DNA of 11,225 bases, taken from NCBI GenBank assembly GCA_000004985.1, contig GG739014.1; one strand, written 5' to 3'. The stretch comes from Naegleria gruberi. Lineage: Eukaryota. Shown in pieces: positions 195 to 11,225 of the stretch. The notes below the pieces were generated by a model. That model was not told the origin of the DNA. It saw nothing but the letters and a program-made list of their open reading frames with translations, and did no database searches. Numbering within the stretch: the stretch's first letter is position 1; each line of letters begins with the position of its first letter. The translations under genes and the position numbers were made by a program.

Positions 195-873
195 TTAAGA
201 ATAATTGATAACCTGAATACGAGAATTATTTCTATCAACGAGTAATATTTCCTGTTGTCTTCTATTATAGCACAATCCGTATGGGTGATGGAATTGACCA
301 AGAGATTTTCCCTTACTGCCAAATGTTTGTTCTTCCTGACCAGTAAATCGATCTAGTATTTTCAGAGATGAATGATATGAATCTGAAACGATCAATTTGT
401 AATTGAAGGGACTAACTTGATCTATACAAATTCCAAAAGGAGAATAGAGTGAATTATTTCCAATCTCCTTGACAAGAATCCATTCATTTGGACTAATTTC
501 TCTAATAATATGAATGTTATTCTTGTCTGGACTTGCTATAATTACCTCTCCAAACTTTGTGAAACATTCCACATTGACAATGTTCGGATTCTTCACATGA
601 ATTTCTTTACCCAATGAATAACTCACATATCGAGTAATTGATTGTAAGATACTTCCATCCACAGTTGAAACAATCTTGATAGCATGATTGTAATTATCAG
701 CCACAAACACCACATTATCCCTGAATGTCTTTCCATACGAAATGGAAATTGATGATGGTTCCTTAAATTCTGTCCTCCCACTTTCATCCAAAATTCCTAC
801 ACACCACGTATAATCCCTATCAAGAGCTCCCAACTTGATATTATTGGTCTTCCACAATACCTTTAAATTCACC
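195..873 (-). CDS. C-terminal fragment of an NHL-repeat (six-bladed beta-propeller type) protein; upstream part lost in assembly gap
   Basis: Open minus-strand frame from gap edge 873 down to stop TAA (revcomp of 195-197). The translation contains several units matching the NHL repeat pattern, e.g. GSKGKSLGQFHHPYGLCYNRRQQEILLVDRNNSRIQVIN, LYSPFGICIDQVSPFNYKLIVSDSYHSSLKILD, FGEVIIASPDKNNIHIIRE and DNVVFVADNYNHAIKIV (Gly-x-Phe...hydrophobic-Val/Ile-Asp...Asn-x-Ile/Val). Confidence 0.7.
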
Positions 874-3800
874 NNNNNNNNNNNNNNNNNNNNNNNNNNN
901 NNNNNNNNNNNNNNNNNNNNNNNNNNNNNNNNNNNNNNNNNNNNNNNNNNNNNNNNNNNNNNNNNNNNNNNNNNNNNNNNNNNNNNNNNNNNNNNNNNNN
1001 NNNNNNNNNNNNNNNNNNNNNNNNNNNNNNNNNNNNNNNNNNNNNNNNNNNNNNNNNNNNNNNNNNNNNNNNNNNNNNNNNNNNNNNNNNNNNNNNNNNN
1101 NNNNNNNNNNNNNNNNNNNNNNNNNNNNNNNNNNNNNNNNNNNNNNNNNNNNNNNNNNNNNNNNNNNNNNNNNNNNNNNNNNNNNNNNNNNNNNNNNNNN
1201 NNNNNNNNNNNNNNNNNNNNNNNNNNNNNNNNNNNNNNNNNNNNNNNNNNNNNNNNNNNNNNNNNNNNNNNNNNNNNNNNNNNNNNNNNNNNNNNNNNNN
1301 NNNNNNNNNNNNNNNNNNNNNNNNNNNNNNNNNNNNNNNNNNNNNNNNNNNNNNNNNNNNNNNNNNNNNNNNNNNNNNNNNNNNNNNNNNNNNNNNNNNN
1401 NNNNNNNNNNNNNNNNNNNNNNNNNNNNNNNNNNNNNNNNNNNNNNNNNNNNNNNNNNNNNNNNNNNNNNNNNNNNNNNNNNNNNNNNNNNNNNNNNNNN
1501 NNNNNNNNNNNNNNNNNNNNNNNNNNNNNNNNNNNNNNNNNNNNNNNNNNNNNNNNNNNNNNNNNNNNNNNNNNNNNNNNNNNNNNNNNNNNNNNNNNNN
1601 NNNNNNNNNNNNNNNNNNNNNNNNNNNNNNNNNNNNNNNNNNNNNNNNNNNNNNNNNNNNNNNNNNNNNNNNNNNNNNNNNNNNNNNNNNNNNNNNNNNN
1701 NNNNNNNNNNNNNNNNNNNNNNNNNNNNNNNNNNNNNNNNNNNNNNNNNNNNNNNNNNNNNNNNNNNNNNNNNNNNNNNNNNNNNNNNNNNNNNNNNNNN
1801 NNNNNNNNNNNNNNNNNNNNNNNNNNNNNNNNNNNNNNNNNNNNNNNNNNNNNNNNNNNNNNNNNNNNNNNNNNNNNNNNNNNNNNNNNNNNNNNNNNNN
1901 NNNNNNNNNNNNNNNNNNNNNNNNNNNNNNNNNNNNNNNNNNNNNNNNNNNNNNNNNNNNNNNNNNNNNNNNNNNNNNNNNNNNNNNNNNNNNNNNNNNN
2001 NNNNNNNNNNNNNNNNNNNNNNNNNNNNNNNNNNNNNNNNNNNNNNNNNNNNNNNNNNNNNNNNNNNNNNNNNNNNNNNNNNNNNNNNNNNNNNNNNNNN
2101 NNNNNNNNNNNNNNNNNNNNNNNNNNNNNNNNNNNNNNNNNNNNNNNNNNNNNNNNNNNNNNNNNNNNNNNNNNNNNNNNNNNNNNNNNNNNNNNNNNNN
2201 NNNNNNNNNNNNNNNNNNNNNNNNNNNNNNNNNNNNNNNNNNNNNNNNNNNNNNNNNNNNNNNNNNNNNNNNNNNNNNNNNNNNNNNNNNNNNNNNNNNN
2301 NNNNNNNNNNNNNNNNNNNNNNNNNNNNNNNNNNNNNNNNNNNNNNNNNNNNNNNNNNNNNNNNNNNNNNNNNNNNNNNNNNNNNNNNNNNNNNNNNNNN
2401 NNNNNNNNNNNNNNNNNNNNNNNNNNNNNNNNNNNNNNNNNNNNNNNNNNNNNNNNNNNNNNNNNNNNNNNNNNNNNNNNNNNNNNNNNNNNNNNNNNNN
2501 NNNNNNNNNNNNNNNNNNNNNNNNNNNNNNNNNNNNNNNNNNNNNNNNNNNNNNNNNNNNNNNNNNNNNNNNNNNNNNNNNNNNNNNNNNNNNNNNNNNN
2601 NNNNNNNNNNNNNNNNNNNNNNNNNNNNNNNNNNNNNNNNNNNNNNNNNNNNNNNNNNNNNNNNNNNNNNNNNNNNNNNNNNNNNNNNNNNNNNNNNNNN
2701 NNNNNNNNNNNNNNNNNNNNNNNNNNNNNNNNNNNNNNNNNNNNNNNNNNNNNNNNNNNNNNNNNNNNNNNNNNNNNNNNNNNNNNNNNNNNNNNNNNNN
2801 NNNNNNNNNNNNNNNNNNNNNNNNNNNNNNNNNNNNNNNNNNNNNNNNNNNNNNNNNNNNNNNNNNNNNNNNNNNNNNNNNNNNNNNNNNNNNNNNNNNN
2901 NNNNNNNNNNNNNNNNNNNNNNNNNNNNNNNNNNNNNNNNNNNNNNNNNNNNNNNNNNNNNNNNNNNNNNNNNNNNNNNNNNNNNNNNNNNNNNNNNNNN
3001 NNNNNNNNNNNNNNNNNNNNNNNNNNNNNNNNNNNNNNNNNNNNNNNNNNNNNNNNNNNNNNNNNNNNNNNNNNNNNNNNNNNNNNNNNNNNNNNNNNNN
3101 NNNNNNNNNNNNNNNNNNNNNNNNNNNNNNNNNNNNNNNNNNNNNNNNNNNNNNNNNNNNNNNNNNNNNNNNNNNNNNNNNNNNNNNNNNNNNNNNNNNN
3201 NNNNNNNNNNNNNNNNNNNNNNNNNNNNNNNNNNNNNNNNNNNNNNNNNNNNNNNNNNNNNNNNNNNNNNNNNNNNNNNNNNNNNNNNNNNNNNNNNNNN
3301 NNNNNNNNNNNNNNNNNNNNNNNNNNNNNNNNNNNNNNNNNNNNNNNNNNNNNNNNNNNNNNNNNNNNNNNNNNNNNNNNNNNNNNNNNNNNNNNNNNNN
3401 NNNNNNNNNNNNNNNNNNNNNNNNNNNNNNNNNNNNNNNNNNNNNNNNNNNNNNNNNNNNNNNNNNNNNNNNNNNNNNNNNNNNNNNNNNNNNNNNNNNN
3501 NNNNNNNNNNNNNNNNNNNNNNNNNNNNNNNNNNNNNNNNNNNNNNNNNNNNNNNNNNNNNNNNNNNNNNNNNNNNNNNNNNNNNNNNNNNNNNNNNNNN
3601 NNNNNNNNNNNNNNNNNNNNNNNNNNNNNNNNNNNNNNNNNNNNNNNNNNNNNNNNNNNNNNNNNNNNNNNNNNNNNNNNNNNNNNNNNNNNNNNNNNNN
3701 NNNNNNNNNNNNNNNNNNNNNNNNNNNNNNNNNNNNNNNNNNNNNNNNNNNNNNNNNNNNNNNNNNNNNNNNNNNNNNNNNNNNNNNNNNNNNNNNNNNN

Positions 3801-4933
3801 NNNNNNNNNNNNNNNNNNNNNNNNNNNNNNNNNNNNNNNNNNNNNNNNNNNNNNNNNNNNNNNNNNNNNNNNNNNNNNNNNNNNNNNNNNNNNNNNNNNN
3901 NNNNNNNNNNNNNNNNNNNNNNNNNNNNNNNNNNNNNNNNNNNNNNNNNNNNNNNNNNNNNNNNNNNNNNNNNNNNNNNNNNNNNNNNNNNNNNNNNNNN
4001 NNNNNNNNNNNNNNNNNNNNNNNNNNNNNNNNNNNNNNNNNNNNNNNNNNNNNNNNNNNNNNNNNNNNNNNNNNNNNNNNNNNNNNNNNNNNNNNNNNNN
4101 NNNNNNNNNNNNNNNNNNNNNNNNNNNNNNNNNNNNNNNNNNNNNNNNNNNNNNNNNNNNNNNNNNNNNNNNNNNNNNNNNNNNNNNNNNNNNNNNNNNN
4201 NNNNNNNNNNNNNNNNNNNNNNNNNNNNNNNNNNNNNNNNNNNNNNNNNNNNNNNNNNNNNNNNNNNNNNNNNNNNNNNNNNNNNNNNNNNNNNNNNNNN
4301 NNNNNNNNNNNNNNNNNNNNNNNNNNNNNNNNNNNNNNNNNNNNNNNNNNNNNNNNNNNNNNNNNNNNNNNNNNNNNNNNNNNNNNNNNNNNNNNNNNNN
4401 NNNNNNNNNNNNNNNNNNNNNNNNNNNNNNNNNNNNNNNNNNNNNNNNNNNNNNNNNNNNNNNNNNNNNNNNNNNNNNNNNNNNNNNNNNNNNNNNNNNN
4501 NNNNNNNNNNNNNNNNNNNNNNNNNNNNNNNNNNNNNNNNNNNNNNNNNNNNNNNNNNNNNNNNNNNNNNNNNNNNNNNNNNNNNNNNNNNNNNNNNNNN
4601 NNNNNNNNNNNNNNNNNNNNNNNNNNNNNNNNNNNNNNNNNNNNNNNNNNNNNNNNNNNNNNNNNNNNNNNNNNNNNNNNNNNNNNNNNNNNNNNNNNNN
4701 NNNNNNNNNNNNNNNNNNNNNNNNNNNNNNNNNNNNNNNNNNNNNNNNNNNNNNNNNNNNNNNNNNNNNNNNNNNNNNNNNNNNNNNNNNNNNNNNNNNN
4801 NNNNNNNNNNNNNNNNNNNNNNNNNNNNNNNNNNNNNNNNNNNNNNNNNNNNNNNNNNNNNNNNNNNNNNNNNNNNNNNNNNNNNNNNNNNNNNNNNNNN
4901 NNNNNNNNNNNNNNNNNNNNNNNNNNNNNNNNN
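874..4933. other. Assembly gap (4060 N)
   Basis: Uninterrupted run of n. Frames reported across it by the ORF track are meaningless. Confidence 1.
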
Positions 4934-5301
4934 TGAGTGAGAGCATTAATTGCTTTATGAGTGTCTGAACTTAACGAAATATCTAATATATTATTGGTTT
5001 TCAATTGATTCTCAATGGTTTTCAATAAACTTTCCTGATCTGAAGCATCTACTTTTTCTGCAATATGAATTTTCTTCCACTTTTCAATGCCTGCTTTTTT
5101 TTTTTTTTGAACCTTAATTTCCAATTCTGTCATGTCAGCCAATTTGATTCCAATGGTGTCTGGAATAACAATCTTTCCTTCTTTATCCACAATGATGAAA
5201 TAACTATCATCCTTTGTCTCCATTTGATCTTTGTTTTCGGAAACTGCAAGTTGATATTCTTGTGCATTGATTTGTTTAAATCTTCTAAATTCGAAACCCA
5301 T
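4934..5301 (-). CDS. N-terminal fragment of a protein-coding gene (MGFEFRRFKQINAQEY...), continues into the gap; may be the same gene as the NHL fragment
   Basis: ATG (revcomp of 5299-5301) in an A-rich Kozak-like context (aaaaaATGG). The frame is open for about 122 codons down to the gap edge at 4934. Charged, lysine-rich sequence with a coiled-coil flavour. No family recognised. Confidence 0.5.
5095..5108 (-). repeat. A14 homopolymer inside the coding sequence (T14 on plus strand) encoding Q-K-K-K-K
   Basis: tgc-T14-gaacc on the plus strand reads gtt caa aaa aaa aaa aaa gca ggc (VQKKKKAG) on the minus strand. Confidence 0.8.
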
Positions 5302-6142
5302 TTTTTATGTTTAATTTTATGTGCAAAGTTTTTAGTAAGATTACTTCTTGATTTTAGAATTTTTAATGAAAAAGGAAGATCAACATATTTATACTAGTGT
5401 CATTTTAGTCTTGTTTCTTTTCAAGCACAAAATGTTTTCATATTGTATCGTAATTCAGATCCATTCCAATGTAATAACTTTTGATTGGAGGTAAAGAAGG
5501 GTCCAAGTTGTGAAATTAGTTCTACTTATTAGAGTTTTACTCAAAGCCATCAATAAGAACGAAGCTCCAATCTGCAATCTGGAGTGGAACATACACCATA
5601 GCTTCTATCAATAGCAGAAAGAAAGCCATTGTATGATCAGCCGAATACAATGATCAACAATTCAAATACAAATATTATTCTCTACCTCATTAGATGCAGT
5701 ACCAAGCCATTTCATAATCTTCCAAAGAGTAAGAATTAAAAAACTTCAAAATCATTAGAGTTTCAACATATAAAATATGCATCTCATCCCGTTCAATAAG
5801 AGGAAGTGACACACAAGAAGAACTTTCTATACATTTTGTTGATTTGGGCACTCCCGTTTATTCCCCACACAAAAAACCCGAAATGTTTCTATAATCGGAG
5901 CTATTACAGTGTGACTATGGGGTCGATATCTCTCCTTTGCTGCGTGGAATTACTGATTGGAATATTAAGGGAGAGGGATAACAAGTTCATCCATTGATCG
6001 TAACATCTTTTTACTGCAGTTTCACCATCCAATCATCATGAACTATGCGCGTAATTGAAAGCAGTAAGGCCGGTTTACACCACCCAAACGAGGTCATCAA
6101 TTGAAGATTCAGTGGGTGATATTCTTCGACTTAGATAAGCTG

Positions 6143-6150
6143 TATAAATA
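6143..6150 (+). promoter_or_regulatory. TATA box (TATAAATA) for the downstream small secreted-protein gene
   Basis: Canonical tataaata about 55 bp upstream of ATG 6206. The leader between them is A-rich (cacaaaaaaaacaaaacaaaATG). Confidence 0.4.
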
Positions 6151-6205
6151 CAGAGCATCCTCTCCATCTCTTTGAAAACATTATTCACAAAAAAAACAAA
6201 ACAAA

Positions 6206-6566
6206 ATGAACGCAAAGATTATCATTGCCTGTCTCTTGATCGCTGTCTTGTGCTTTGCCACTTTCGGTATGGCTGCTGTGAGTATTTTCAATTTTAAATA
6301 TGCTTATTAATAATCTATTAATCCTTAATAATATTCAGGCTGCTAAGAAGAACCTTAGAAAGGCTCCAGTTGCTAGAAGAGCTTCCACTAAAGCTGTTAG
6401 AACTACCAAACCAACCAAGACTACCAAGACTTTTAAGCCAAAGAAAGCCGGTAAGCCAAAGAAGGCTCCAGTTGTTGTCAAGAAGAGCACTGTTTCCACC
6501 AAGAGTGTTGGTTCTGCTCCAGCTGTCAAAAAGCCTTTCAAGCTTAAGCCAATCTATAATTTTTAA
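6206..6566 (+). CDS. Small secreted, highly basic (Lys/Arg/Pro/Thr-rich, histone-H1-tail-like) protein; two exons (6206-6277, 6339-6566) with a 61-nt phase-0 intron
   Basis: Exon 1 starts at ATG 6206 and encodes MNAKIIIACLLIAVLCFATFGMAA, a typical hydrophobic signal peptide. GTGAGT at 6278 and ...ttcag ending at 6338 define a 61-nt intron that carries in-frame stops. Exon 2 continues in the same frame as AAKKNLRKAPVARRASTKAVRTTKPTKTTKTFKPKKAGKPKKAPVVVKKSTVSTKSVGSAPAVKKPFKLKPIYNF and ends at TAA 6564-6566. Codon usage (gct, aag, cca, ggt, aga) is consistent with the other genes. Confidence 0.6.
6278..6338 (+). other. Spliceosomal intron (GTGAGT ... CAG), 61 nt
   Basis: 5' splice site gtgagt at 6278-6283 and 3' acceptor ttcag at 6334-6338. 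The interior is AT-rich with in-frame stop codons. Length is typical of short fungal introns. Confidence 0.55.
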
Positions 6567-6569
6567 TTC

Positions 6570-6575
6570 AATAAA
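6570..6575 (+). terminator. Possible poly(A) signal AATAAA just after the stop of the small basic protein gene
   Basis: ttcaataaaatg lies immediately 3' of TAA 6564-6566. Confidence 0.3.
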
Positions 6576-6646
6576 ATGTTGAACTTGGAGCAATTACTTT
6601 GCAATACTTTGTTATTATTATTTGTAAAGTACGTTTATCAAAATAT

Positions 6647-7093
6647 CTAACCCAATTTATGGGCACTAATCTTGTGGGGGACTCGTTTGTAAATTGAATT
6701 AATTAAGGAATTATATTTTAGATTTTCATCAATATCTATAGTAACAAGAGTTATTACATTACACCCCTTTTCCAATAAATCATCCATAAACAATAAAAAT
6801 CCATATAGAGCTAGATCGTGAGAGTACTCTCCACATAATGTGTCATTAGAAAATTCAATATCGCTGCCGTATTGTTCCACGTGTCGGTAGAATAAAGTAT
6901 GAGCAAATTCTCTAGCAACAAGATTGACGAGACCAACTTGAATCAAACTAAATTCGGGATCGCTCAAAATAACTGTTGTTGGTCTTTTTAATTGGTCCAC
7001 AAGCACTGGCAGTCCAACTATCAACATTTCGGCTAATAAATTCATAAAATCCAAATACCTAAAGGATGTAAGATTTGCACATGCTGTAAACAA
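6647..7093 (-). CDS. Hypothetical protein fragment (no ATG; ORF-track 'M' is a TTG); open frame ends flush against the left 104-bp repeat
   Basis: 148-codon minus-strand open frame ending at TAG (revcomp of 6647-6649). The first codon at 7091-7093 is TTG, not ATG. The codon above it (7094-7096) is still open, and the frame is only closed by a TAA inside the repeat (7112-7114). Contains a degenerate HExxH-like stretch, AREFAHTLFYRH. Family not recognised. Confidence 0.35.
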   Translation of the reverse strand: MFTACANLTSFRYLDFMNLLAEMLIVGLPVLVDQLKRPTTVILSDPEFSLIQVGLVNLVAREFAHTLFYRHVEQYGSDIEFSNDTLCGEYSHDLALYGFLLFMDDLLEKGCNVITLVTIDIDENLKYNSLINSIYKRVPHKISAHKLG

Positions 7094-7096
7094 AAC

Positions 7097-7200
7097 TGTT
7101 CTTATCGAAGTTTACTGAGATAAAGTAGTGTTTCTTGAAAACAACAATTGAATAAACTAATAATAGAAAGTATGCTCAAAAAAATTGTCATACTATGGTC
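7097..7200 (+). repeat. Left copy of a perfect 104-bp direct repeat (LTR-like or att-like); contains the recombinase ORF start codon
   Basis: tgttcttatcgaagtttactgagataaagtagtgtttcttgaaaacaacaattgaataaactaataatagaaagtatgctcaaaaaaattgtcatactATGgtc is identical base-for-base to 10690-10793. The flanks diverge immediately outside. ATG 7195-7197 lies in the last 6 bp. Confidence 0.9.
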
Positions 7201-8256
7201 GCTAAGAAGCCTCAAGATATTGACTCCTCTTCATCTGATGAAGATCTCCCAGCAGTTGAAGTAGAATACCCCACAACACCAGTGAAAGCAAGAAAACAAC
7301 AAGCTGCTAAGAAGCTTAGAAAGTTAAAGGCCATGTCACCTGTAGCTAATAGAAATAAGCGCAAACAATCTACTTCAGTTTCATCATCTAACAGTGCCTT
7401 AGATGATGGTATTTCAACTGTTGTTTCCAGTTCGTTGCTAAGCAATTCAACTTTGTTGGATAGTTCTTCAACTGCACCCTCTTCGTCAAACAATTCGTCT
7501 TCTTCCAATTCAGGTAGAGATAGTTTTGCCAGTAGTTCATCTGAACATGATATCATGGCGATCAAAGCCCAAATGCAAGAAATGATTGGAGTTTTGAGAA
7601 CCGTAATAGGAAATATCTCTGAACTTACTAAGAAAGTTCAGGAGAGAGAAGAAGAATCAGATGATGATTTTGTTAATCCAGAAGCTATATCTCCAGAAGT
7701 TTGGTTACGTCAAACTTATAGAGACCTTAGAAGTTCTTACAATGTTCCTTCATCCATTGGAGATGATTTATTACTATCTGCAGTATCCTCCGAGATACTT
7801 AAAGACCGTAAACAAGAGGAGACCAAGAGAAGAATTCAATATTTGCTCCTTAAATACAAGGATGTGATTTCCAAGTTTGCCCCAGACATTAGATTGGATG
7901 AGATTAACAGTATTGGTTATTCTAAACTAGTAGAGTTAACTCAAATCAAAATTGAATTGTTGGAATATGCATTGAATTCTCCACTTGATTTTACAGTCAT
8001 GACAGAGATTACAGAACTTTGTAGAATGATTTGCAAAGTTGAAGCCCTCTTCCTTAAAGAAGGTTTACAAGTTTCCACTTTCGATGTTGGTAGAGAATTC
8101 CTTAACAGATACATTTCTACTAATAGTTTCGAAACTGCTGCCGAAAGTGAACTTCATAATATTAGAACAACATATCATTACTACAAAGCAACCAAGCAGC
8201 AACAAGGTCCAAAGGGAATTACCAAGAAGTATTCTAAGAAGAAACCGTTTCAAAAG
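7195..8256 (+). CDS. N-terminal part of the element ORF: Ser-rich, acidic/basic low-complexity region with NLS-like basic cluster, then a helical region; runs into the gap
   Basis: ATG 7195 in a good context (actATGg). It opens a 354-codon frame to the gap edge, with codon usage like neighbouring genes. The N-terminal stretch runs MVAKKPQDIDSSSSDEDLPAVEVEYPTTPVKARKQQAAKKLRKLKAMSPVANRNKRKQ... through to ...KKYSKKKPFQK at the gap edge. No RT, RNase H or integrase motifs are visible in this part. Confidence 0.6.
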
Positions 8257-9893
8257 NNNNNNNNNNNNNNNNNNNNNNNNNNNNNNNNNNNNNNNNNNNN
8301 NNNNNNNNNNNNNNNNNNNNNNNNNNNNNNNNNNNNNNNNNNNNNNNNNNNNNNNNNNNNNNNNNNNNNNNNNNNNNNNNNNNNNNNNNNNNNNNNNNNN
8401 NNNNNNNNNNNNNNNNNNNNNNNNNNNNNNNNNNNNNNNNNNNNNNNNNNNNNNNNNNNNNNNNNNNNNNNNNNNNNNNNNNNNNNNNNNNNNNNNNNNN
8501 NNNNNNNNNNNNNNNNNNNNNNNNNNNNNNNNNNNNNNNNNNNNNNNNNNNNNNNNNNNNNNNNNNNNNNNNNNNNNNNNNNNNNNNNNNNNNNNNNNNN
8601 NNNNNNNNNNNNNNNNNNNNNNNNNNNNNNNNNNNNNNNNNNNNNNNNNNNNNNNNNNNNNNNNNNNNNNNNNNNNNNNNNNNNNNNNNNNNNNNNNNNN
8701 NNNNNNNNNNNNNNNNNNNNNNNNNNNNNNNNNNNNNNNNNNNNNNNNNNNNNNNNNNNNNNNNNNNNNNNNNNNNNNNNNNNNNNNNNNNNNNNNNNNN
8801 NNNNNNNNNNNNNNNNNNNNNNNNNNNNNNNNNNNNNNNNNNNNNNNNNNNNNNNNNNNNNNNNNNNNNNNNNNNNNNNNNNNNNNNNNNNNNNNNNNNN
8901 NNNNNNNNNNNNNNNNNNNNNNNNNNNNNNNNNNNNNNNNNNNNNNNNNNNNNNNNNNNNNNNNNNNNNNNNNNNNNNNNNNNNNNNNNNNNNNNNNNNN
9001 NNNNNNNNNNNNNNNNNNNNNNNNNNNNNNNNNNNNNNNNNNNNNNNNNNNNNNNNNNNNNNNNNNNNNNNNNNNNNNNNNNNNNNNNNNNNNNNNNNNN
9101 NNNNNNNNNNNNNNNNNNNNNNNNNNNNNNNNNNNNNNNNNNNNNNNNNNNNNNNNNNNNNNNNNNNNNNNNNNNNNNNNNNNNNNNNNNNNNNNNNNNN
9201 NNNNNNNNNNNNNNNNNNNNNNNNNNNNNNNNNNNNNNNNNNNNNNNNNNNNNNNNNNNNNNNNNNNNNNNNNNNNNNNNNNNNNNNNNNNNNNNNNNNN
9301 NNNNNNNNNNNNNNNNNNNNNNNNNNNNNNNNNNNNNNNNNNNNNNNNNNNNNNNNNNNNNNNNNNNNNNNNNNNNNNNNNNNNNNNNNNNNNNNNNNNN
9401 NNNNNNNNNNNNNNNNNNNNNNNNNNNNNNNNNNNNNNNNNNNNNNNNNNNNNNNNNNNNNNNNNNNNNNNNNNNNNNNNNNNNNNNNNNNNNNNNNNNN
9501 NNNNNNNNNNNNNNNNNNNNNNNNNNNNNNNNNNNNNNNNNNNNNNNNNNNNNNNNNNNNNNNNNNNNNNNNNNNNNNNNNNNNNNNNNNNNNNNNNNNN
9601 NNNNNNNNNNNNNNNNNNNNNNNNNNNNNNNNNNNNNNNNNNNNNNNNNNNNNNNNNNNNNNNNNNNNNNNNNNNNNNNNNNNNNNNNNNNNNNNNNNNN
9701 NNNNNNNNNNNNNNNNNNNNNNNNNNNNNNNNNNNNNNNNNNNNNNNNNNNNNNNNNNNNNNNNNNNNNNNNNNNNNNNNNNNNNNNNNNNNNNNNNNNN
9801 NNNNNNNNNNNNNNNNNNNNNNNNNNNNNNNNNNNNNNNNNNNNNNNNNNNNNNNNNNNNNNNNNNNNNNNNNNNNNNNNNNNNNNNNNNNNN
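8257..9893. other. Assembly gap (1637 N) inside the element ORF
   Basis: Run of n. About 545 codons could be hidden here. The reading frame across it is undefined. Confidence 1.
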
Positions 9894-10657
9894 AAGGTCA
9901 AACATCTCGTGTTGAAGCCTTGAGACCATCCCTTCAATTTTGGGCCAATATTGAGAGAAGAGTTTTTCCAATTTCATGGTCTTATGATAAGATTAAAAGA
10001 GGAATTACTCTTATTTGGTCCTTGATTGATAGAAAAGCTTTGAAACGTGATCCAATTTTCTATCATCATATTGAAGGTTTCATTCAGAGAAAAGATCATT
10101 ATGATCCTTTCATTTTCAAACTCACTAGTGCCATGTTAGTCATTGGTTTCAGACTTTTCGCTAGACCAGGTGAATTAGCTAGACTCAAGTGGGGTTATGT
10201 TACAAAGCTTAGAAATGGTAACATCAAATTAGATCTCAGTGGTCACAAAACAGATTTCTTTCTACTAGAAAAGCCGATTACTATTGACAAGCATCTTGAA
10301 AATCCTTCAGTGTGTCCAGTGAAATTGCTTTTTGATTACATGAACACTGTACAGCATTTCAAAAAAGCAGATTCACCATTGTTTTCATTGCAGGACAATA
10401 TTTTCTTCAACACTGAAGATGTTTCTCAACTTATCAAGAATGCTATGTTCTCTGTTGATTCAGAAATCACTGTTTCTGGTCACAGTTTACGTATTGGTGC
10501 AACTACTGAGAGTATTATCAAGGGAATTCCTACTCAGGATATTATTATGGGGACTAGACATAAGGATGTGAAATCTTTACAACCTTATCAAAGACAAGAA
10601 GCTCTTGCAGCTCGCCACTTGTCTACTACTCTCCTTTCTCGGGACAATATCCATTAG
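9894..10657 (+). CDS. C-terminal part of the element ORF: tyrosine recombinase (phage-integrase-fold) catalytic domain, ends at TAG 10655-10657
   Basis: Translation from the gap edge begins GQTSRVEALRPSLQFWANIERR. It continues through LFARPGELARLKWGYV (box-I Arg in the RxxELxxLxW pattern) and LDLSGHKTDFFLL (beta-hairpin Lys). It then reaches VSGHSLRIGATTESIIKGIP (box-II HxLR). It ends with IMGTRHKDVKSLQPYQRQ (conserved His plus the Tyr nucleophile). The full R-K-H-R-H-Y catalytic set is present in canonical order and spacing. Y sits about 25 aa from the C-terminus. Confidence 0.85.
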
Positions 10658-10689
10658 TTTATTTATTGTTGGTTTTCTTTTAAGAAACA

Positions 10690-10793
10690 TGTTCTTATCG
10701 AAGTTTACTGAGATAAAGTAGTGTTTCTTGAAAACAACAATTGAATAAACTAATAATAGAAAGTATGCTCAAAAAAATTGTCATACTATGGTC
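10690..10793 (+). repeat. Right copy of the perfect 104-bp direct repeat; carries AATAAA (10744-10749) 3' of the recombinase stop
   Basis: Identical to 7097-7200 and starts 32 bp after TAG 10655-10657. Its internal ATG (10788) would give only an 11-codon ORF (MVPPLPTLYYY*). Confidence 0.9.
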
Positions 10794-10810
10794 CCACCCT
10801 TGCCCACCCT
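10794..10810 (+). repeat. CCACCCT tgc CCACCCT: GC-rich 7-bp direct doublet abutting the right repeat
   Basis: ccaccct at 10794-10800 and 10804-10810. It is strikingly GC-rich in an AT-rich context and starts exactly at the repeat boundary. Confidence 0.6.
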
Positions 10811-10832
10811 CTATTATTATTAGTTTATTCAA
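10810..10832 (-). repeat. Inverted copy of 20 bp of the 104-bp repeat (pairs with 10741-10760), potential long hairpin across the right element boundary
   Basis: tctattattattagtttattcaa is the reverse complement of ttgaataaactaataataga (10741-10760 in R2; 7148-7167 in R1), with a 3-bp insertion. Confidence 0.6.
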
Positions 10833-10834
10833 AT

Positions 10835-10852
10835 CAAAGGTTCTAACCTTTG
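10835..10852. repeat. Perfect 18-bp palindrome caaaggtt-ct-aacctttg
   Basis: 8-bp arms caaaggtt / aacctttg are exact reverse complements with a 2-nt centre. Confidence 0.7.
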
Positions 10853-11018
10853 TCCTTAATACTTTGGAATGTGATTTTTTAATCAATCCCCAAATATTTT
10901 CTCAATTGATTGAAAGATTTCACTCTATTTGTATTATTGAAAGATGATTGTTATCATCTTTTTATCTTTGTATTATTATTTGATATTTGACATCATTTAT
11001 TGATGTTTTTTATCATGA

Positions 11019-11060
11019 TTGGTGATCTAAAACCAATTGTTGGTGATCTAAAACCGACAG
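11019..11060 (+). repeat. 21-bp tandem repeat x2 (ttggtgatctaaaacc + 5 variable nt)
   Basis: ttggtgatctaaaaccaattg at 11019-11039 and ttggtgatctaaaaccgacag at 11040-11060. The first 16 nt are identical. Confidence 0.7.
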
Positions 11061-11116
11061 ATCAACTTTATGTTGATTAGAAGGTATCTGATACCTTTCC
11101 CTTACTATTAGTAAGG
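11061..11116. repeat. Cluster of short perfect inverted repeats: atcaac-tttat-gttgat (11061-11077), aaggtatc-t-gatacctt (11081-11097), ccttacta-t-tagtaagg (11100-11116)
   Basis: Each pair of arms is an exact reverse complement. The two 17-bp palindromes have 8-bp arms and a single-nt centre and are separated by 2 bp. Confidence 0.7.
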
Positions 11117-11225
11117 CAATATGTACTGAACATACCTCTTTTCTCATTCTCGTTTTGATTCGTAAGTGTCAAGACGGTTGAGTAGGTTTTTTAATTCTTA
11201 ACTTTTTGGTTTTTACCGATTTTTC

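What the first reader, a model, noticed from the sequence alone, without database searches (positions are those of the whole stretch)
7097..7200. The repeat is bifunctional: it supplies the start codon and 5' region on the left, and the AATAAA and 3' end on the right
ATG 7195 is 6 bp from the end of the left copy, so the upstream 98 bp of the repeat is the only element-borne 5' region available to drive the ORF. The same sequence sits 32 bp after the TAG stop in the right copy and contains a canonical AATAAA (10744-10749). This is the U3-R-U5-like logic of LTRs, but compressed into 104 bp.

A 6-bp inverted repeat (agtatg / catact, 7169-7174 and 7189-7194) with a 14-nt A-rich loop sits immediately in front of the ATG. 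The right copy's own ATG opens only an 11-codon ORF (MVPPLPTLYYY*). This would be a constitutively produced upstream/terminal micro-ORF if read-through transcripts exist.
Basis: inference. Interest (0 to 1): 0.6.

Follow-up and report, generated by a model that had tools for sequence, protein, structure and literature searches.

The report
Terminal repeat of a Naegleria retrotransposon
The 104-base repeat is real and is the end-repeat of a mobile element of the amoeba Naegleria gruberi that copies itself through RNA and encodes a tyrosine recombinase. It is a known kind of element with somewhat unusual ends, and the proposed promoter and poly(A) roles remain untested.

Summary
Every sequence fact in the finding checks out: two identical 104-bp copies (7097-7200, 10690-10793), ATG 7195 six bases from the end of the left copy, AATAAA at 10744, the 6-bp inverted repeat and the 11-codon ORF.

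The single ORF does not hold. A run of N (8257-9893) interrupts it, and the ATG and the TAG are in different frames. Relatives carry three genes: gag-like, reverse transcriptase/RNase H/methyltransferase-like, and tyrosine recombinase. The element is therefore a DIRS-order retrotransposon of Naegleria gruberi, not an LTR element. The window is an 11,225-bp gapped scaffold, and the two repeat copies lie on different contigs.

A contiguous 98%-identical relative (L011) has the same repeat at both ends, but its right copy runs on into a second gag, head to tail.

Two features are new here. The 37 nt before the right copy pair with the first 65 nt of the repeat in a 40-bp hairpin, which recurs with a different sequence in a distant relative; AATAAA lies in its 3' arm.

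The "5' leader on the left, 3' end on the right" logic is plausible but untested. Interest is modest.

The parts
7097..7200 (+). Left copy (A1) of the 104-bp direct repeat. It holds the whole element-borne 5' leader and the first two codons of ORF1.
   Evidence: Identical to 10690-10793. The left boundary is fixed by the end of the host-gene match at 7096 and by the same TGTTC boundary next to a different flank in L011.
7195..8256 (+). ORF1, gag-like. The readable part is 354 codons and runs into the N-run; it is 375 aa in N. gruberi paralogues.
   Evidence: Near-identical to P0014, differing at one of 354 readable residues, and P0142 starts with the same residues. Homologous ORF1 is present in L003, L001 and L011. 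No Pfam domain.
8257..9893 (.). Run of N, most likely an assembly gap. By homology it replaces the pol gene (reverse transcriptase, RNase H-like, Dam-like methyltransferase domain).
   Evidence: The readable flanks align to L011 61-1211 and 3292-4185 at 98.4%. The missing L011 stretch carries RVT_1 (3e-26) and Dam (8e-4). The JGI model P0142 jumps this stretch as an 'intron'.
9896..10657 (+). Tyrosine recombinase ORF, readable C-terminal 253 codons plus the TAG stop.
   Evidence: 99% identical to P0001. Pfam Phage_integrase E 1e-4, below the curated cut-off. R, HxxR and Y are invariant in the family alignment. The family profile hits XerA and Cre in the PDB at about 1e-4.
10638..10657 (+). Motif CTCGGGACAATATCCATTAG over the recombinase stop codon, conserved at the nucleotide level; its last bases begin the 5' arm of the hairpin.
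   Evidence: Alignment of window, L011, L004, L007, L005 and L006. In L006 the motif lies after the stop codon, so it is not conserved for coding reasons.
10653..10689 (+). Segment S: 37 nt directly upstream of the right copy, complementary to positions 33-65 of the repeat. It resembles the DIRS internal complementary region (ICR) in position.
   Evidence: Local alignment score 38, against 18.2 +/- 2.5 (maximum 27) for shuffles, I3.
10653..10754 (+). Long hairpin of 40 bp formed by S plus the first 65 nt of the right copy. The start of the repeat lies in the 5' arm and AATAAA in the 3' arm.
   Evidence: RNA -39.1 kcal/mol, z -5.4, 0 of 200 shuffles. DNA z -6.2 on either strand. The same architecture with a different sequence occurs in L005 (z -5.6 RNA, -4.7 DNA). 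The left copy with its own flank does not fold this way (z +0.6).
10690..10793 (+). Right copy (A2) of the 104-bp direct repeat.
   Evidence: It lies on a different contig of the scaffold from the left copy (N-run between them).
10744..10749 (+). AATAAA in the right copy (7151-7156 in the left copy). A candidate poly(A) signal or part of a TATA-like stretch.
   Evidence: AAUAAA is the top poly(A) hexamer in N. gruberi (PMC11529991). It is also present at repeat position 45 in L005. Its frequency in the window is not above chance.
7170..7189 (+). Conserved leader motif GTATGCTCAAAAAAATTGTC (right copy 10763-10782).
   Evidence: 20 of 20 nt identical in L003, whose gag is only about 40% identical. 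The 14-nt core is identical in L005 and L011. Only these two matches occur in the window.
10788..10823 (+). 11-codon ORF opened by the right copy's ATG (MVPPLPTLYYY*).
   Evidence: In L011 the corresponding ATG is ATA and the sequence continues as a second gag.
10815..10832 (+). 18-nt perfect reverse complement of repeat positions 52-69, lying 21 nt beyond the right copy. Unexplained.
   Evidence: It can pair with the right copy as an alternative hairpin (DNA -16.9 kcal/mol, z -6.8).
6650..7096 (-). Interrupted host gene: the 3' part of a NAEGRDRAFT_52787-like gene (residues 530-678 of 678).
   Evidence: Residues 1-529 are not encoded anywhere in the readable window.

Best explanation
**What it is.** The 104-bp repeat is the terminal direct repeat ("A") of a recently active, multi-copy DIRS-order retrotransposon of Naegleria gruberi. 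Its genes are gag-like ORF1, then pol (reverse transcriptase, RNase H-like, inactive-type Dam-like methyltransferase domain), then a tyrosine recombinase (YR).

**The replicating unit.** The unit is A + genes + a 37-nt segment S, 4,018 nt in the complete relative L011.
- The left copy of A provides the only element-borne upstream sequence: a TATA-like AT-rich stretch, the conserved motif ATGCTCAAAAAAAT (a likely initiator or leader element) and the gag start codon.
- The right copy of A is the same sequence met again after one full turn of the unit. It acts either as the leader of the next unit in a head-to-tail array or circle, or as a lone extra A.

**Inferred mechanism.** An A...S-A arrangement lets a promoter inside A1 make an RNA that ends inside or just after A2, and so carries all unit information with a short terminal redundancy. 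Reverse transcription with a template switch across A then gives a unit-length circle, or a longer product. The recombinase, or homologous recombination within A, inserts it, often into resident copies, which would give the tandem arrays seen.

**The hairpin.** S plus the first 65 nt of A2 form a conserved 40-bp hairpin. It exists only at the S|A junction, never at the left end. It is the best candidate for the cis element used in replication: either a 3' fold-back primer for cDNA synthesis or the palindromic recombinase site.

**Shown:** the anatomy, the family assignment, conservation of the motif and the hairpin, and the tandem arrangement.

**Inferred:** the promoter, the poly(A) use, the circle, and the role of the hairpin.
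For: **Identity**
- The YR, gag and host proteins are N. gruberi proteins.
- Relatives L001 and L011 have gag / pol (RVT_1 2e-23 and 3e-26; Dam 2e-5 and 8e-4) / YR in that order.
- The YR catalytic residues are conserved, and the family profile hits XerA and Cre.
- DIRS-like copies were already counted in N. gruberi (PMC3266345) and N. lovaniensis (PMC6125883).
- N. gruberi proteins place the family on at least six contigs.

**Left terminus**
- The host gene match ends at 7096.
- L011 has the same boundary with another flank.

**Same repeat at both ends on one contiguous contig**
- L011 61-164 and 4079-4182.

**Order YR-S-A-gag in relatives**
- The full order is seen in L011 and L005, and a truncated YR gene followed by a gag leader in L001/L002.
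- SNPs in L011 are distributed as a crossover within A would leave them.

**Hairpin**
-.

**Leader motif**
-.

**AAUAAA usage in N. gruberi**
- PMC11529991.
Against: - No transcript data could be consulted, so the start site and poly(A) site are guesses.
- AATAAA is no more frequent here than chance. It lacks the UGUA and U-rich auxiliaries described for N. gruberi and is buried in the hairpin in the right copy.
- The two copies in the window lie on different contigs of a gapped scaffold. The right flank does not continue the host gene that the left end interrupts, so they may belong to two different insertions.
- The right end of the repeat (ATGGTC|) is seen at only one junction and could be a random truncation of a next tandem unit.
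- The L011 SNP pattern could come from a chimeric metagenome assembly.
- Integration of a unit-length circle cannot by itself create an A...S-A insertion at a new site. No junction-complementary ICR or B repeat that would solve this was found.
Confidence: 0.6

Rival explanations
1. LTR-type logic exactly. A = U3-R-U5: transcription starts inside the left copy and polyadenylation occurs inside the right copy. A linear double-stranded DNA with a full A at each end is rebuilt by two strand transfers and inserted as such.
For: - Identical copies at both ends, with one clean right end at ATGGTC.
- AATAAA at repeat position 55, also present in a distant relative, and AAUAAA is used by N. gruberi.
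- A TATA-like stretch and the conserved motif lie upstream of the ATG.
- From memory, not checked here: the yeast Ty1 gag ORF also begins inside the 5' LTR.
Against: - The element encodes a tyrosine recombinase and no DDE integrase, and such enzymes act on circular or site-bearing DNA.
- There is no TG...CA terminal signature. No conserved TGG primer site follows the left copy, and no polypurine tract precedes the right copy in the window, L005 or L007.
- R would be at most about 15 nt.
- The right-copy AATAAA is sequestered in a -39 kcal/mol hairpin.
Confidence: 0.2
2. The right copy has no function of its own in the window. It is the first 104 nt of a second tandem unit (or of an older resident copy) that was truncated, or the pairing of the two copies is an artefact of scaffolding. 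The position of the right boundary of the repeat, 6 nt past the ATG, would then be accidental.
For: - In all three relatives readable past the recombinase gene, the sequence continues into gag.
- The copies are on separate contigs joined by N. The JGI model bridges the gap.
- The right flank does not encode the rest of the interrupted host gene.
- Truncated copies exist in the genome (P0015, P0140, P0146, P0147).
Against: - A lone A...S unit could not regenerate its own 5' end from an internal promoter, so some second A is expected for autonomy (inference).
- The break falls exactly where the leader and start codon end.
- An 18-nt perfect complement of the repeat lies 21 nt beyond the break, which is odd for a random deletion.
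Confidence: 0.2

Closest known systems
DIRS1-like retrotransposons (Dictyostelium DIRS-1)
   Same: - Gene set and order: gag-like, RT/RH with a Dam-like methyltransferase domain, and a tyrosine recombinase.
- A short complementary segment lies directly upstream of the right terminal repeat, where the DIRS-1 ICR lies (PMC7192593).
- A 3' hairpin has been proposed as the cDNA primer in DIRS-1.
- Insertion into resident copies is common to both.
- N. gruberi copies were assigned to this superfamily by TBLASTX (PMC3266345).
   Different: - The terminal repeats here are direct, not inverted.
- S is complementary to the interior of the repeat (positions 33-65), not to the joined outer tips of the two termini. 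No junction-complementary region exists in the complete relative.
[quoted passage not shown] B1-A2-B2)
   Same: - An A repeat at the 5' end is repeated near the 3' end, downstream of the last ORF.
- PAT-like elements also carry the methyltransferase domain.
- The best named non-Naegleria RT hit is from a panagrolaimid nematode, the group in which PAT was found (the PAT host is from memory).
- VIPER and TATE occur in kinetoplastids, which are placed with Naegleria in Discoba (placement from memory), and TATE forms tandem clusters (PMC6681497).
   Different: - No B1/B2 pair: the sequences before and after the right copy are unrelated, with an alignment score at shuffle level.
- The gene order differs from VIPER, which is gag-YR-RT.
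- At 104 bp, the A repeat is shorter than the A repeats of the best-characterised VIPER copies with the A1 ... B1-A2-B2 pattern, which measure 136-414 bp.
LTR retrotransposons and retroviruses (U3-R-U5 logic), and pararetrovirus terminally redundant RNAs
   Same: - The direct terminal repeat carries the 5' leader and a candidate poly(A) signal.
- The start codon lies inside the repeat, as in yeast Ty1 (from memory).
- A greater-than-unit-length RNA made from a tandem or circular template is the hepadnavirus/caulimovirus solution (from memory).
   Different: - No integrase.
- No TG...CA ends.
- No PBS or PPT found.
- The repeat is only 104 bp.
- A tyrosine recombinase is encoded instead.

Membership tests
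DIRS order (tyrosine-recombinase retrotransposons) | Encodes a reverse transcriptase/RNase H | tested here: met
   Not readable in the window (N-run). In the 98.4%-identical contiguous relative L011, the corresponding stretch carries RVT_1 (3e-26). L001 has RVT_1 at 2e-23, and there is a weak RNase H-like hit in L005.
DIRS order (tyrosine-recombinase retrotransposons) | Encodes a tyrosine recombinase instead of an integrase or endonuclease | tested here: met
   Window 9896-10654 hits Phage_integrase at E 1e-4, below Pfam's cut-off. R, HxxR and Y are invariant in 8 family members. The profile hits XerA and Cre at about 1e-4.
DIRS1-like superfamily | Inverted terminal repeats | tested here: not met
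   The repeats are direct. There is no inverted similarity between the start and the end of the repeat.
DIRS1-like superfamily | An internal complementary region that matches the joined outer ends of the two terminal repeats | tested here: not met
   A junction probe (last 30 + first 30 nt of A) finds nothing above shuffle level in the body of L011. S is complementary to the interior of A instead.
DIRS1-like / PAT-like | Methyltransferase-like domain in pol | tested here: met
   Pfam Dam hits at 2e-5 to 8e-4, below the curated cut-off, in four relatives at the same position. Unreadable in the window itself.
PAT-like / Ngaro-like / VIPER-like (split direct repeats) | A1 at the 5' end repeated as A2 near the 3' end | tested here: met
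   Window (across a gap) and L011 (contiguous).
PAT-like / Ngaro-like / VIPER-like (split direct repeats) | B1 directly before A2 repeated as B2 directly after A2 | tested here: not met
   Alignment of the region before A2 against the region after A2 scores 22, against 21.5 +/- 3 for shuffles. Only one right junction was available, and L011 runs into a second gag instead.
LTR retrotransposons | DDE integrase, a tRNA primer-binding site after the 5' LTR, and a polypurine tract before the 3' LTR | tested here: not met
   No integrase domain in the three ORFs of L011. The sequences next to the repeat are not conserved as TGG... or as purine runs in the window, L003, L005 or L007. This part was by inspection only.
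LTR-like function of the repeat (promoter in the left copy, poly(A) site in the right copy) | Transcripts start in the left copy and end in the right copy | not testable with these tools
   No RNA data are accessible. Only the general use of AAUAAA in N. gruberi is documented.

The most novel reading that the evidence does not exclude
The Naegleria elements may be a distinct, fifth structural type of tyrosine-recombinase retrotransposon. They would have short LTR-like direct repeats and no ITR/ICR or B repeats. They would replicate from tandem or circular templates through a terminally redundant RNA. The conserved 40-bp hairpin at the S|A junction would then be both the fold-back primer for cDNA synthesis and the palindromic recombination site. 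If so, they would give a simple system in which to test how DIRS-order elements prime reverse transcription, which is still unknown.
Probability: 0.15. Interest if true: 0.55.

Novelty: new variant of a known kind. Interest (0 to 1): 0.3.

Why it matters
How DIRS-order retrotransposons start reverse transcription and rebuild their ends is still largely a model (PMC7192593). A compact element of about 4 kb, recently active in a culturable amoeba, could be a convenient test case. Its termini are a plain 104-bp direct repeat plus one conserved hairpin.

For genome annotation the practical points are these:
- The JGI model NAEGRDRAFT_76524 is an artificial gag-recombinase fusion across an assembly gap.
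- This small scaffold carries a transposon-disrupted copy of NAEGRDRAFT_52787.

The "bifunctional repeat" idea itself is ordinary transposon biology.

Tried and rejected
- **Single 1,154-codon ORF.** Rejected because of the N-run, the frame mismatch and the three ORFs in relatives.
- **Crypton (a DNA transposon with only a recombinase).** Rejected once a reverse transcriptase gene was found upstream of the recombinase gene in L001 and L011.
- **Split direct repeat B1/B2.** Searched for and not found.
- **DIRS1-type ICR and inverted terminal repeats.** Searched for in the complete relative and not found.
- **Relics of older element copies in the flanks.** tblastn with gag, pol and recombinase proteins found none.
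- **Known RNA families.** Rfam found nothing relevant in 6900-11225.
- **Deletion of about 443 nt in pol.** First inferred from the N-run length, then withdrawn. The run is probably an assembly gap of estimated size.
- **More family DNA.** The metagenome scan gave 2 short loci. The viral scans gave none. The prokaryote genome scans gave none for the protein and one chance 20-mer hit in a Maribellus genome. N. gruberi contigs themselves are not retrievable.
- **Literature on Naegleria promoters and start sites.** The search returned nothing usable.
- **Empty-site test.** The right flank does not continue the host gene, so no clean empty site could be reconstructed.

Full report
**1. The observation**

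The two 104-nt copies (7097-7200 and 10690-10793) are identical, and the identity cannot be extended by one base on either side. The other details are also correct:
- ATG 7195 lies 6 nt before the end of the left copy.
- The TAG stop is at 10655-10657, 32 nt before the right copy.
- AATAAA is at 7151 and 10744.
- AGTATG/CATACT lie at 7169-7174 and 7189-7194 with a 14-nt loop.
- The right copy's ATG opens MVPPLPTLYYY*.

Two details are no more than chance would give:
- AATAAA occurs 8 times on the + strand of 5,528 readable bases, against 6.4 expected.
- The 104-nt repeat folds no better than shuffled sequence (z +0.31).

**2. What the window is**

The window contains two runs of N, at 874-4933 and 8257-9893.

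The proteins it encodes are Naegleria gruberi proteins. One gene model, NAEGRDRAFT_76524 (P0142, 569 aa), sits on a contig of exactly 11,225 nt, which is the window's length. That model joins the gag-like part (...KKP) to the recombinase part (GITLIW...) with a GT...AG "intron" that spans the N-run.

I conclude that the window is a whole small scaffold of the NEG-M assembly and that the N-runs are most likely assembly gaps. Two things follow:
- The gap length (1,637) is an estimate. My early inference of a frame-shifting 443-nt deletion in pol cannot stand.
- The left copy (contig 4934-8256) and the right copy (contig 9894-11225) are linked only by scaffolding, in a genome whose proteins place this family on at least six contigs.

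**3. What the element is**

The "ORF" of the finding is not one ORF. ATG 7195 and TAG 10655 are in different frames at face value. The database has separate proteins for the two ends:
- A 375-aa ORF1 product (P0014).
- A 326-aa recombinase (P0001).

The C-terminal part is a tyrosine recombinase:
- Pfam Phage_integrase at E 1e-4, below the curated cut-off.
- Invariant R, HxxR and Y in eight family members.
- Family-profile hits to XerA and Cre.

Relatives recovered from metagenome assemblies show what lies in the gap.
- L001 has a gag-like ORF, a 642-aa pol with RVT_1 (2e-23) and a Dam-like domain (2e-5), and the recombinase.
- L011 is a contiguous 4,324-nt contig, 98.4% identical to both readable parts of the window element. 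It has gag (372 aa), pol (637 aa; RVT_1 3e-26, Dam 8e-4) and recombinase (297 aa).

This is the gene set of DIRS-order retrotransposons of the DIRS1/PAT type (definitions in PMC6681497). DIRS-like copies were already counted in N. gruberi (7 copies in 6 families, not described structurally; PMC3266345) and in N. lovaniensis (PMC6125883).

**4. The ends**

*Left end.* The minus-strand ORF at 6650-7096 is 98% identical to residues 530-678 of the 678-aa protein NAEGRDRAFT_52787, which lies on another, 297-kb scaffold. The match stops exactly at 7096. L011 has an unrelated flank abutting the same TGTTC. So 7097 is a true element terminus, and the 98 nt before the ATG are indeed the only element-borne upstream sequence.

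*Right end.* ...CATACTATGGTC|CCACCC is the only right junction available. Residues 1-529 of the host protein are not encoded in 10794-11225. So the right flank is not simply the other side of the same insertion. It could be another copy brought in by scaffolding, a complex insertion, or a rearrangement.

*Relatives.* In L011 the same 104-nt repeat stands at 61-164 and 4079-4182. The right copy, however, continues for 142 nt more as a second, 97%-identical gag whose ATG is ATA. L005 also runs recombinase-spacer-repeat-ATG-gag-like codons. L001/L002 run from a truncated recombinase gene into a leader and gag start.

The k-mers used for the L011 (k127) and L005 (k141) assemblies are longer than the 104-nt repeat in L011 and the about 101-nt leader in L005. 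So the order S-A-gag must exist in reads of those samples. Head-to-tail arrays (or circles) are therefore usual in this family.

In L011, the variants that match the window lie in the 3' part of the left copy and the 5' part of the right copy. This is the pattern expected if a circle recombined with a resident copy inside A. A chimeric assembly could give the same pattern.

**5. Tests of known terminal architectures**

- No B1/B2 pair flanks the right copy (score 22, against 21.5 +/- 3 for shuffles).
- No inverted terminal repeats, and no internal region complementary or identical to an A-end|A-start junction, exist in the complete relative.

So the defining termini of DIRS1-like elements (ITR + ICR) and of PAT/Ngaro/VIPER-like elements (A1...B1-A2-B2) are both not met. 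This rests on one right junction.

**6. New features found**

*(a) A conserved long hairpin.* The 37 nt before the right copy (S, 10653-10689, overlapping the stop codon) are the reverse complement of repeat positions 33-65 (score 38, against 18 +/- 2.5). S plus the first 65 nt of the right copy fold into a 40-bp hairpin, 10653-10754:
- RNA -39.1 kcal/mol, z -5.4.
- DNA z -6.2 on either strand.
- 0 of 200 shuffles fold as well.

L005's recombinase is only 44% identical, and its arms have a different sequence. It forms the same structure at the same place (z -5.6 RNA, -4.7 DNA), with the repeat start TGTTC in the 5' arm and an AATAAA in the 3' arm. The left copy with its own flank does not fold this way (z +0.6).

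*(b) A conserved junction.* The junction reads AACA|TGT in the window, L005 and L007.

*(c) A conserved motif at the stop codon.* CTCGGGACAATAyCCATTAG at the recombinase stop is conserved at the nucleotide level even where it is non-coding (L006).

GTATGCTCAAAAAAATTGTC is identical over 20 nt in L003, whose gag is only about 40% identical. The 14-nt core is identical in L005. The flanking 6-nt stem is not kept. The motif lies 9, 20 and 34 nt before the gag ATG in the three lineages and is preceded by AT-rich, TATA-like sequence. It also contains an out-of-frame ATG (MLKKI...), which argues that transcription starts within or after it (inference).

**7. How it most likely works**

*Shown:*
- A DIRS-order element with a unit A + genes + S.
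- A at both ends.
- Tandem junctions.
- A conserved hairpin at the S|A junction.
- A conserved leader motif.

*Inferred:*
- A1 acts as promoter and leader.
- The RNA ends in or just beyond A2. This gives a terminally redundant template from which reverse transcription can regenerate a full unit as a circle or multimer.
- The recombinase or homologous recombination integrates this product, often into resident copies.
- The hairpin is the best candidate for the priming or recombination element. A 3' fold-back primer has been suggested for DIRS-1, and its ICR, located at the same relative position, is essential (PMC7192593).

*On the AATAAA:*
- For: N. gruberi does use AAUAAA (PMC11529991).
- Against: the hexamer here lacks the UGUA and U-rich auxiliaries and is base-paired in the right copy only.
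- So its use as the poly(A) signal is uncertain. It could equally be part of the TATA-like region of the promoter.

*Open problem.* A unit-length circle cannot by itself produce an A...S-A insertion at a naive site. Either the integrating molecule carries two A copies, or A...S-A copies arise by insertion into a resident A.

**8. Verdict**

- The left-copy role is well supported by anatomy.
- The right-copy role is plausible but weakened by the hairpin, by the tandem continuation in relatives and by the scaffold caveat.
- The "single ORF" and the analogy to LTR elements as a family are wrong.

This is a known kind of element, already reported from this species, with a terminal architecture that does not match the described DIRS superfamilies. 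It is of modest interest, mainly to transposon specialists.

Noticed in passing
window 874-4933 and 8257-9893: Two runs of N. The window length equals that of the contig carrying NAEGRDRAFT_76524, whose 569-aa model fuses gag to the recombinase across the second run. The runs are therefore probably assembly gaps, and that gene model is an artefact.
   Followed up: yes
window 6650-7096 (-) and 10794-11225: The element's left end cuts a 98%-identical copy of NAEGRDRAFT_52787 between residues 529 and 530. The intact gene is on a 297-kb scaffold. The sequence to the right of the element does not encode residues 1-529. The scaffold may be an insertion haplotype joined to the 3' end of a different element copy, or a rearranged locus.
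   Followed up: partly
window 10815-10832: An 18-nt perfect reverse complement of repeat positions 52-69 lies 21 nt beyond the right copy. It can form an alternative hairpin with the right copy (DNA z -6.8). It shares ATTAGTTTATT with the start of segment S. It could be a target preference, a relic or chance.
   Followed up: partly
window 7172-7264; L003 10-45; L005 1774-1854: The conserved leader motif starts with an ATG that is out of frame with gag. It would open a 30-codon upstream ORF (MLKKIVILWS...) overlapping the gag start if it were transcribed.
   Followed up: partly
L001 3585-3665 and L002 2400-2480: In two different samples the recombinase ORF is cut right after HSLRIGAT. It is followed by ATGCATACTATTCTTGGCTTGATTTGC... 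and a new gag-like start (MSNKLAPS...). CATACTAT resembles the end of the repeat and TTCTTGGCTTGATTTGC its start, so this may be a fixed end-to-start junction or a nested insertion.
   Followed up: no
L009 470-1020: A degenerate recombinase fragment (76% identical to the window's) is broken after ...TESIIKG. The flanking sequence appears to encode an unrelated gene on the other strand (read by eye, not tested). This would be another truncated relic, broken within 24 nt of the L001 break point.
   Followed up: no
window 195-5301 (-): A large gene with C-terminal NHL repeats (Pfam NHL 4e-10) is interrupted by the first N-run.
   Followed up: no
window 6300-6566 (+): An 88-codon Lys/Ala/Pro-rich ORF (histone H1-like composition) with no Pfam hit lies between the NHL gene and the interrupted host gene.
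   Followed up: no
window 11019-11055: The 16-nt sequence TTGGTGATCTAAAACC occurs twice, 21 nt apart, in the AT-rich right flank.
   Followed up: no
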